A stretch of 61,200 nucleotides of DNA, the filler included, from Kipferlia bialata (taxonomy: Eukaryota): NCBI GenBank assembly GCA_003568945.1. It is 4 parts of 4 records of this genome, joined end to end, with 100 filler letters (N's around TTAATTAATTAA, not from the genome) between each part and the next. Parts side by side here need not be neighbours in the genome. Positions count along the whole stretch, not along the records: positions 59,752 to 61,200 come from BDIP01000458.1; 3 more parts are not named here. One strand, written 5' to 3'. The first letter of the stretch is position 1, and each line of letters starts with the position of its first letter. The position numbers were made by a program, and so were the translations under genes. Of the stretch, positions 60,034 through 60,804 are shown one piece after another. Under the pieces are notes generated by a model, which made no database searches, was not told the origin of the DNA, and saw only the letters and a list, made by a program, of their open reading frames with translations.

Positions 60034-60804
60034 CATAATTACGGGATGGCGCTGCCTATATTGGTCGCAGGTAGATATACAAATTCACACACAAATACAT
60101 GTACTCATATCTGCTTGGCGGAGATCTACCTCCTCTCTTTACTCCCAAAGGATATGTATGCATTCACATTCTGATTCTTCTTATCCCAGGTCTCCCCGGT
60201 CTTATGGAGGGAGAGAGGTGTCTCCTATACGGTGGCATGGAGAGTGTGCTGCCCAAGGCTGGTACGGTTCCAGCATTAAGGTAGATAGATAGATCTATGG
60301 GTACATTTGTATAGTGTATAGTGTATACATATATATGGGTGTGTATCTCCTGTATGGTGGCATGGAGAGTATTCTACCCAAGGCCGGTACAGTTCCTGCT
60401 CTGAGGTTGATATATACATATTCATGTAGGGTTCATACAGATATATTCTATTCATATTTTTATACTCTCCATTTCTCTTATCCTTATGACTATACGTGTA
60501 TTGGCACAGAACACACCTATATGACACCAGATACCTCTTTACCCCTCACACCCTGCTCGCCCCCAAGGACAGACCCCCCCTCTCTCTTCCCATGTCTAAC
60601 CCTTTAGGCACCTGTACCCTCTCCTTCACACCCTCTTGTCTGCCAAGGACAGACTCTGTACATTCATAGTACTGGATGTTACACTCTACAGGTATGTATC
60701 GCAGAGTTCCTACTGTTGCCTATCCCTTCACCTCTCCTACGATGCGTCATTGCACCCTTTAACCACCAGATGGACCCACATTGAGCACGACTACCCAAGC
60801 ACAG
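59886..60804 (+). CDS. FKBP-type PPIase-like domain fragment (partial gene)
   Basis: Exons 59886-59954, 60190-60280, 60608-60691 and 60770-60804 splice to IRLNHGMALPILDAGLPGLMEGERCLLYGGMESV..FIVLDVTLYRWTHIEHD, cf. FKBP FTLG.GQVI.G.DEG...M..GE...L.......L.FDVELLSW. Confidence 0.55.

What the first reader, a model, noticed from the sequence alone, without database searches (positions are those of the whole stretch)
60190..60407. Heavily recoded echo: 8 silent codon changes and one V>I in 19 codons
Seen: exon 60222-60280 LLYGGMESVLPKAGTVPALR versus echo 60347-60405 LLYGGMESILPKAGTVPALR, with CTA>CTG, TAC>TAT, CTG>CTA, GCT>GCC, ACG>ACA, CCA>CCT, GCA>GCT and TTA>CTG. The echo keeps a donor but has no typical branch/acceptor. 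A weak AG at 60313-60314 would give an in-frame exon of equal length. Inference: long purifying selection on both copies, as a present or former mutually exclusive exon or an import from a very divergent allele.
Basis: partly seen in the sequence, partly recalled or inferred. Interest (0 to 1): 0.7.

Follow-up and report, generated by a model that had tools for sequence, protein, structure and literature searches.

The report
Splice-junction echoes fill Kipferlia introns
The recoded exon copy is real DNA inside an intron of a protist gene and is one of dozens of roughly 100-base head-to-tail copies of exon ends that make up most of the extra length of this genome's long introns; it is likely never translated, and its many silent differences likely come from a diverged second chromosome copy that supplied it.

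Summary
Observation confirmed: 19 codons, 8 silent, one V>I. Exon, echo and intron lie on one independent 950-nt DNA contig at single-copy depth with no differences, so this is no mis-join. The gene is an annotated Kipferlia bialata FKBP/cyclophilin-like gene; both annotated proteins use the first copy. The echo is not a mutually exclusive exon: no branch point, 5 of 28 upstream bases match, 34-nt spacer. It is one of 70 echoes next to 163 modelled exons (0 in shuffles): donor echoes always downstream, acceptor echoes always upstream, period about 107 nt whatever the exon length, present in 38 of 63 introns of 130 nt or more and 0 of 93 shorter ones. One-sided selection (only the live exon protected) explains the silent share in most genes, but not here (12 of 14 changed codons silent) or in the gene at 22-25 kb (27 of 37; about 0.36-0.40 expected). 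Best reading: a staggered join between diverged homologs duplicated the junction, so the echo is a fossil allele. That step is inferred; no second haplotype is seen.

The parts
59788..59818 (+). acceptor-type echo of the start of exon 59886-59954 (period 98, one silent change)
   Evidence: DNA contig pieces suggest a further copy upstream of the contig start (records 1-3)
59886..59954 (+). live exon (residues 145-168 of P0002)
   Evidence: tblastn; gene model
60041..60070 (+). donor-type echo of exon 59886-59954 (period 116; 3 silent, 1 replacement)
60190..60280 (+). live exon, 91 nt, in the FKBP-like part of an annotated peptidylprolyl-isomerase-like gene
   Evidence: P0002 and P0005 both carry the V form; domain lead
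60281..60607 (+). 327-nt intron holding one donor echo and one acceptor echo
   Evidence: on one DNA contig
60281..60342 (+). intron half of the duplicated unit (62 nt), weakly homologous to the sequence after the echo donor
   Evidence: flank score 0.20 vs null 95th percentile 0.14; alignment
60313..60314 (+).
60343..60405 (+). the echo: copy of the last 63 nt of the live exon, 12 differences, 8 silent codons, V>I, plus C>Y at the edge
60406..60407 (+). echo donor GT, likely unused (its use would put a stop right after the live exon end)
60531..60574 (+). older acceptor-type echo of exon 60608-60691 with its own AG, an in-frame 3-nt gap and several replacements (period 77)
60608..60691 (+). 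live exon
60770..60804 (+). live exon
60894..60911 (+). donor-type echo of exon 60770-60804 (18 nt identical, period 107)
22269..25011 (+). second gene with the same silent excess: 14 echoes, 27 of 37 unique changed codons silent
44180..54411 (+). gene A with 25 echoes whose changes fit plain neutral decay (12 of 35 silent)

Best explanation
The echo is a real, likely untranslated, head-to-tail duplication of the last 63 exon bases plus about 62 intron bases, one of about 70 such splice-junction duplications in this window, and its silent differences were likely inherited because the two copies came from two already diverged homologous chromosomes. Shown: it is genomic, intronic in both annotated proteins, and part of a polar class (donor echoes downstream, acceptor echoes upstream, period about 107 nt) that accounts for the long introns. 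Inferred: a staggered join (one homolog broken about 62 nt into the intron, the other about 63 nt before the donor; by microhomology joining or a one-ended template switch) left two alleles of the junction in tandem. Both had been functional, so they differ mostly at silent sites; decay since then adds replacements and frameshifts. Only duplications that copy one splice site survive, and the spliceosome would keep using the site nearest the exon body, which implies pairing across exons or 5'-most donor scanning.
For: One 950-nt DNA contig, 0 differences, depth 473 like other unique contigs (460-492) spans 60043-60854. 70 echoes kept of 73 found at 163 exons, 0 in 5 shuffles; unanchored search: 27 downstream 3' ends and 25 upstream 5' starts; the 9 other hits were trimmed cases of the same two kinds or touched a cut exon; donors precede acceptors in 10 of 10 introns with both. 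Period median 107.5, 10-90% 82-135, no relation to exon length (rho -0.02). Echoes in 0 of 93 introns under 130 nt and 38 of 63 longer ones, about 119 nt added per echo. Silent excess: 12 of 14 unique changed codons in this gene and 27 of 37 in the 22-25 kb gene vs 0.40 (P 6e-4, 5e-5) or 0.36 after simulating detection. Changes private to the nearer echo in 13 arrays: 8 silent, 3 replacement, and two sites with three different silent codons, so the echo lineages, not only the live exon, look constrained. In the 36 echoes with homologous flanks, flank mismatch 0.23 is close to pS 0.21 while pN is 0.053. The genome paper reports a diploid k-mer profile (PMC5874029, passage); end-joining between chromatids giving tandem duplications is known in mouse meiosis (10.1101/2020.06.23.168138, passages). 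One RNA contig leaves the DNA at the live donor 32374, not the echo donor 32477 (record 11).
Against: No second haplotype: no contig with other letters over the exons at 85% or over 20 kb at 93%, though Logan contigs drop simple variants. The focal echo needs homologs about 0.59 apart at silent sites (16 sites only), which is species-level. Gene A (12 of 35 silent; dN/dS 0.35 to its paralog) and the low-complexity gene (15 of 40) fit plain duplication with one-sided selection, and paralog-polarised private changes in genes A and B are about 6 replacements to 4 silent (read by eye). Gene groups were drawn after seeing the data and echoes of one exon are not independent. Several echoes are identical in the exon part but unrelated in the flank, which this model alone does not explain. 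Metamonads lack Ku-type end joining (PMC8516963, passage). Gene models and frames outside the focal gene are my own.
Confidence: 0.5

Rival explanations
1. Plain intrachromosomal tandem duplication (slippage or Okazaki-flap type) with identical copies at birth; only the live exon is under selection, and this echo is the tail of the distribution.
For: Fits gene A, gene B and the low-complexity gene; a roughly 100-nt period suits flap-type duplications (PMC13167724 abstract; size recalled); echoes often share older states against the live exon; needs no diverged homolog; an earlier scan note reached this reading for a sea urchin gene (e1-9861148).
Against: Chance of one such echo among 70 is 0.036; the other echoes of this gene lean the same way; the 22-25 kb gene gives P about 6e-6 to 5e-5; echo-private changes are mostly silent.
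Confidence: 0.27
2. Plain duplication, but the echo is refreshed by conversion from functional exons (alleles or cDNA), or live exons turn over silent sites much faster than echoes mutate.
For: Echoes with 22-36 identical exon bases and flanks no closer than random; exon-part divergence does not track flank divergence (rho -0.16); RNA-templated repair is proposed for a related protist (PMC8516963, passage).
Against: Conversion from the same chromosome cannot enrich silent differences, and filtered conversion into the exon removes them (reasoning); a rate-only model needs the live exon about 8 times faster, while triplets show as many silent changes on echo branches as on the live branch. With allelic donors it merges into the best explanation.
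Confidence: 0.13
3. Present or former mutually exclusive exon.
For: In-frame, stop-free 91-nt reading from the AG at 60313-60314; a 34-nt spacer is below the shortest modelled intron (46 nt) and would force exclusion; strong silent bias.
Against: No branch motif; 5 of 28 identity in the 5' part; the spacer and 5' part align to the intron after the echo donor; such an AG occurs in 2 of 27 echoes by chance; only 1 of 34 donor echoes has a frame-compatible acceptor above the 5th percentile of live ones; decay of whole-exon copies would leave mirror remnants and a period tied to exon length, neither seen.
Confidence: 0.06
4. Assembly artefact: a paralog or allele mis-joined into the intron.
For: The assembly is imperfect here: two annotated proteins on different contigs share these four exons.
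Against: An independent de Bruijn contig carries exon, echo and intron unbroken at single-copy depth; both annotated proteins have V, none has the echo's I; contigs of up to 3.6 kb span many other echoes with 0 differences.
Confidence: 0.02

Closest known systems
Human F7 intron 7 37-bp VNTR with silent 5' pseudo-sites (PMC1557585, abstract read)
   Same: A repeat unit spans the exon-intron border, so functional-looking donors follow the authentic one and stay silent; the most upstream donor is used.
   Different: One locus, near-identical short units, donors only. Here about a quarter of exon ends outside the first contig are echoed, on both donor and acceptor sides, with about 107-nt units and codon-patterned divergence.
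Intron gain by tandem duplication of an AGGT segment (Rogers model; ATP2A1, PMC3265369 passages; PMC4974935 passages)
   Same: Short intragenic tandem duplication that leaves the protein unchanged.
   Different: There an exonic segment makes a new intron; here an existing junction is copied and an old intron grows.
Microhomology-mediated tandem duplication linked to Rad27/FEN1 (PMC13167724, abstract)
   Same: Frequent short tandem duplications, neutral outside coding sequence and purged inside it.
   Different: Copies are identical at birth, which does not give the silent excess of this gene; microhomology could not be read at this old junction.
Tandem duplication by end-joining of staggered meiotic breaks on two chromatids (10.1101/2020.06.23.168138, passages)
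   Same: Gives a tandem duplication whose two copies can come from different homologs.
   Different: Mouse, kilobase scale, rare, ATM-deficient; not shown for any metamonad, and Ku is absent there.
Exon-junction echoes in sea urchin genes (earlier AI notes e1-9861148, e1-7787398, unchecked)
   Same: Dead tandem copies of exon-intron junctions in introns, with some silent bias.
   Different: There 43 of 107 silent matched one-sided selection; here two genes exceed that null.

Membership tests
Mutually exclusive exon pair | Each copy has its own working acceptor and donor | tested here: not met
   Echo has a donor but no branch-AG acceptor (score -5.6)
Mutually exclusive exon pair | Copies homologous over the whole exon, same length and frame | tested here: not met
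   Length and frame match only through a chance AG; 5' 28 nt are 5 of 28 identical
Mutually exclusive exon pair | Transcripts with either copy | tested here: inconclusive
   The one guessed-RNA run has no cover on this gene
Rogers-type intron gain by tandem duplication | Duplicated unit is exonic and holds AG|GT used as donor in copy 1 and acceptor in copy 2 | tested here: not met
   Unit is exon end plus intron start; the AG before 60218 has no counterpart before 60343
Junction-spanning tandem repeat with silent pseudo-donors (F7 type) | Repeat unit spans the exon-intron border and repeats the donor downstream | tested here: met
   63 exon + 62 intron nt, GT kept; 31 of 34 donor echoes keep GT
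Junction-spanning tandem repeat with silent pseudo-donors (F7 type) | Only the most upstream donor is used | tested here: inconclusive
   Annotation and a stop codon argue for it here; direct RNA support for one other intron only (record 11)
Microhomology-mediated tandem duplication | Short microhomology at the unit ends | tested here: inconclusive
   Not readable at this diverged junction; a 4-nt match seen by eye in one young echo (23731)
Microhomology-mediated tandem duplication | Copies identical at birth, then one-sided selection | tested here: not met
   Not met for this gene and the 22-25 kb gene; met for gene A and the low-complexity gene
Inter-homolog staggered join | The two copies match two different alleles | not testable with these tools
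   No second isolate or haplotype found
Assembly mis-join of a paralog | Junction absent from independent assembly; complete paralog with echo codons present | tested here: not met

The most novel reading that the evidence does not exclude
Kipferlia introns grow by staggered joins between highly diverged homologs, so each intron keeps a layered fossil record of extinct alleles of its flanking exons (about 50,000 echoes if 70 per 156 introns held for the 124,912 annotated introns). That would give, from one genome, evidence of past outcrossing or allele divergence in a free-living metamonad, and would show that its reduced spliceosome skips full-strength inner splice sites by pairing across exons despite short introns.
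Probability: 0.35. Interest if true: 0.75.

Novelty: new variant of a known kind. Interest (0 to 1): 0.52.

Why it matters
Junction-spanning duplications are known from single loci. Here they appear to be the main way introns lengthen in a whole region of a genome (0 of 93 short introns, 38 of 63 long ones). Echo splice sites score as well as the live ones in 19 of 34 donors and 21 of 36 acceptors, which makes this genome a natural experiment in splice-site choice in a lineage whose snRNAs were not found (PMC6679479, passage). If the silent excess holds genome-wide, echoes would let one read allele history and the repair pathway that made them in a eukaryote lacking Ku. They also mislead gene finders and assemblers. 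As a single echo it is modest: an intronic fossil, not a new exon.

Tried and rejected
No whole genome was held, so the class was counted on this window only. No RNA holder was listed as such; the guessed-RNA run X2 has no cover on the focal gene, which is no evidence on expression; in the 20-kb lay its joints were crowded out by repeats. Pfam on four single exons: nothing. Metagenome scans for a relative of the protein (88 pattern hits, none confirmed) and for a degenerate motif covering exon and echo (0) found nothing. Protein searches found no homolog of the FKBP-like part outside K. bialata, so V versus I could not be polarised. Rejected: use of the echo donor as an alternative 5' site (stop right after the live donor, period not a multiple of 3; across echoes 18 of 70 periods are multiples of 3); echoes taken from the neighbouring paralog (echoes in gene A are closer to A than to B); one nested insert of a whole foreign intron as the general rule (many introns hold acceptor echoes only; inner copies tend to be the more diverged); same-chromosome gene conversion and second-order selection through reversion (reasoning: the first removes silent differences, the second needs exchange far more frequent than 19% divergence allows). 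Three of 73 hits were dropped before counting (one without a donor, two from one mis-modelled exon), and 28 predicted exons were removed as echo-derived or weak before the search. Gao and Lynch 2009 was not held and is known only through a citing passage.

Full report
Observation. The two 19-codon stretches translate to the same peptide except V>I, with 11 base differences, 8 silent codons and one replacement. The homology runs 63 nt (60218-60280 vs 60343-60405, 12 differences), ends at a GT in both copies, and has a period of 125 nt.

Where it lies. A 44-residue window translation found one protein, P0002, annotated as Kipferlia bialata KIPB_004849. Its residues 145-237 map to four exons at 59886-60804. 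It has a weak cyclophilin match (Pfam E 0.007, below cut-off), and language-model neighbours are FKBP plus cyclophilin proteins (scores under 0.9, a lead only). A second annotated protein, P0005 (KIPB_002653), starts with the same 93 residues. Both carry V, the first copy. No other homolog of this part was found.

Is it real DNA? Yes. In run X1 a single 950-nt contig lies on 60043-60854 with no other letters or gaps at depth 473, the level of unique contigs elsewhere (460-492), and no diverged copy was laid on the exon or echo at 85% likeness. Depth from contigs is a coarse measure, and simple heterozygous variants are dropped by that assembly.

Is it an alternative exon? Unlikely. The AG at 60313-60314 gives an open 91-nt exon but lacks the branch motif that sits just before Kipferlia acceptors (score -5.6). 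The 28 bases after it match the live exon at 5 positions and instead belong to a 62-nt stretch that aligns weakly with the intron after the echo donor. An AG at the equal-length position occurs in 2 of 27 donor echoes, as a 5% AG frequency predicts. Using the echo donor would meet a stop at once. RNA could not settle it: X2 does not cover this gene.

It is one of many. I built gene models with a self-trained splice and coding model, removed 28 echo-derived or weak exons, and searched the introns next to 163 exons for copies of exon ends. 73 were found, 0 in each of 5 shuffles; 70 were kept. 34 copy an exon 3' end plus donor into the downstream intron and 36 copy an acceptor plus exon start into the upstream intron. 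An unanchored search found 27 and 25 of these kinds, and no true mirror case among 9 other hits. The nearest-copy period has median 107.5 nt and does not depend on exon length. None of 93 introns under 130 nt holds an echo; 38 of 63 longer ones do, with about 119 nt added per echo (short introns cannot hold a full unit, so part of this is geometry). 50 of 192 exon ends outside the first contig are echoed, but only 3 of 66 introns in the first contig. 31 of 34 echoes keep GT and 33 of 36 keep AG, often scoring as well as the live site. Every modelled intron of the focal gene between 59886 and 60804 except the 78-nt one carries echoes. This anatomy is what about 100-nt tandem duplications leave when only those that copy a single splice site survive (inference).

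The silent bias. If copies are identical at birth and only the live exon is constrained, 0.36-0.40 of changed codons should be silent. Pooled, 70 of 138 unique changed codons are silent. The excess comes from two genes: this one (12 of 14) and one at 22-25 kb (27 of 37). Gene A (12 of 35), gene B (2 of 4), the low-complexity gene (15 of 40) and the rest (2 of 8) fit the null. The focal echo alone has P 0.0005-0.007 depending on its boundary, or 0.036 for one among 70. In arrays of three or more copies, changes private to the nearer echo are 8 silent to 3 replacement; one four-copy array there may hold a block change rather than independent ones. So in some genes the echo lineage itself was under protein-level selection for most of its divergence, yet the anatomy gives it no way to be translated in place, and some echoes carry frameshifts or a stop.

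Mechanism. The simplest way to join these facts is that the two copies were alleles: a break in the intron of one homolog joined to a break in the exon of a diverged homolog, or a one-ended template switch, leaves both junctions in tandem. Duplications from breaks on two chromatids are described in mouse meiosis (10.1101/2020.06.23.168138, passages). K. bialata is reported as diploid by k-mers (PMC5874029, passages and section 7); metamonads lack Ku and rely on homologous recombination and partial alternative end joining (PMC8516963, passages). Against this: no second haplotype is visible, the focal echo needs near species-level divergence, and several genes need no such donor. I put it at 0.5, plain duplication with a lucky tail at 0.27. 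The spliceosome would have to skip strong inner sites; 5'-most donor scanning is shown for human F7 (PMC1557585, abstract), and one RNA contig stops at the live donor of another echo intron. Pairing across exons is my inference.

Known or new. Junction-spanning repeats (F7), intron gain by duplication (PMC3265369 and PMC4974935, passages) and microhomology-mediated duplication (PMC13167724, abstract) are known, and earlier unchecked scan notes describe echoes in two sea urchin genes. I found no description for Kipferlia: the genome paper's main text has no 'duplicat' or 'tandem', and searches listed nothing on it (listings and abstract starts only; supplements and subscription journals not seen). 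Verdict: a new, dense variant of a known kind of event, with an unexplained silent excess that is the interesting part; interest 0.52.

Noticed in passing
window 21918-22017, 43902-44001, 59652-59751: N44 + 12-nt stop linker + N44 joins: the window is four concatenated contigs; the finding is at the start of the last one.
   Followed up: yes
window 59752-61200: Two annotated K. bialata proteins on contigs of 12,481 and 18,844 nt (P0002, P0005) share these exons. P0005 continues into an unrelated helicase-like sequence past the poly-C run near 61165, while depth says single copy: likely an assembly duplication or mis-join there, downstream of the echo.
   Followed up: partly
window 44368-55411 (+) and 59651-55851 (-): Convergent paralog pair; exon identity rises from about 0.6-0.8 to 0.94 toward the 3' ends, suggesting conversion; dN/dS about 0.35. 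Gene A has a CBM48-like stretch (recalled motif, not tested).
   Followed up: partly
window 1-21917 (-): One very long, dynein-like (recalled impression, not tested) gene with 66 modelled introns, median 77 nt, only 3 with echoes: echo density differs strongly between contigs.
   Followed up: no
window 36050-36083, 52753-52774, 46680-46715: Echoes identical to the exon over 22-36 nt while the intron flank is unrelated or much diverged; suggests exon-limited conversion.
   Followed up: partly
window 28597-28637, 35640-35676, 45442-45480, 46506-46546, 60531-60574: Old echoes differ from the live exon by gaps of about 3, 6, 6, 9 and 18 nt (in frame) against two out-of-frame cases (read partly by eye).
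   Followed up: partly
window 24988-25093: A 51-nt exact repeat around a 4-N gap; looks like a scaffolding artefact, unlike the echoes.
   Followed up: no
window 36651-36755 vs 36882-36998: Whole-exon-scale duplication kept in frame in the low-complexity gene (78% identity).
   Followed up: no
window 41335-41599: An X2 contig runs through the modelled intron 41483-41610: unspliced RNA, retention, or DNA.
   Followed up: no
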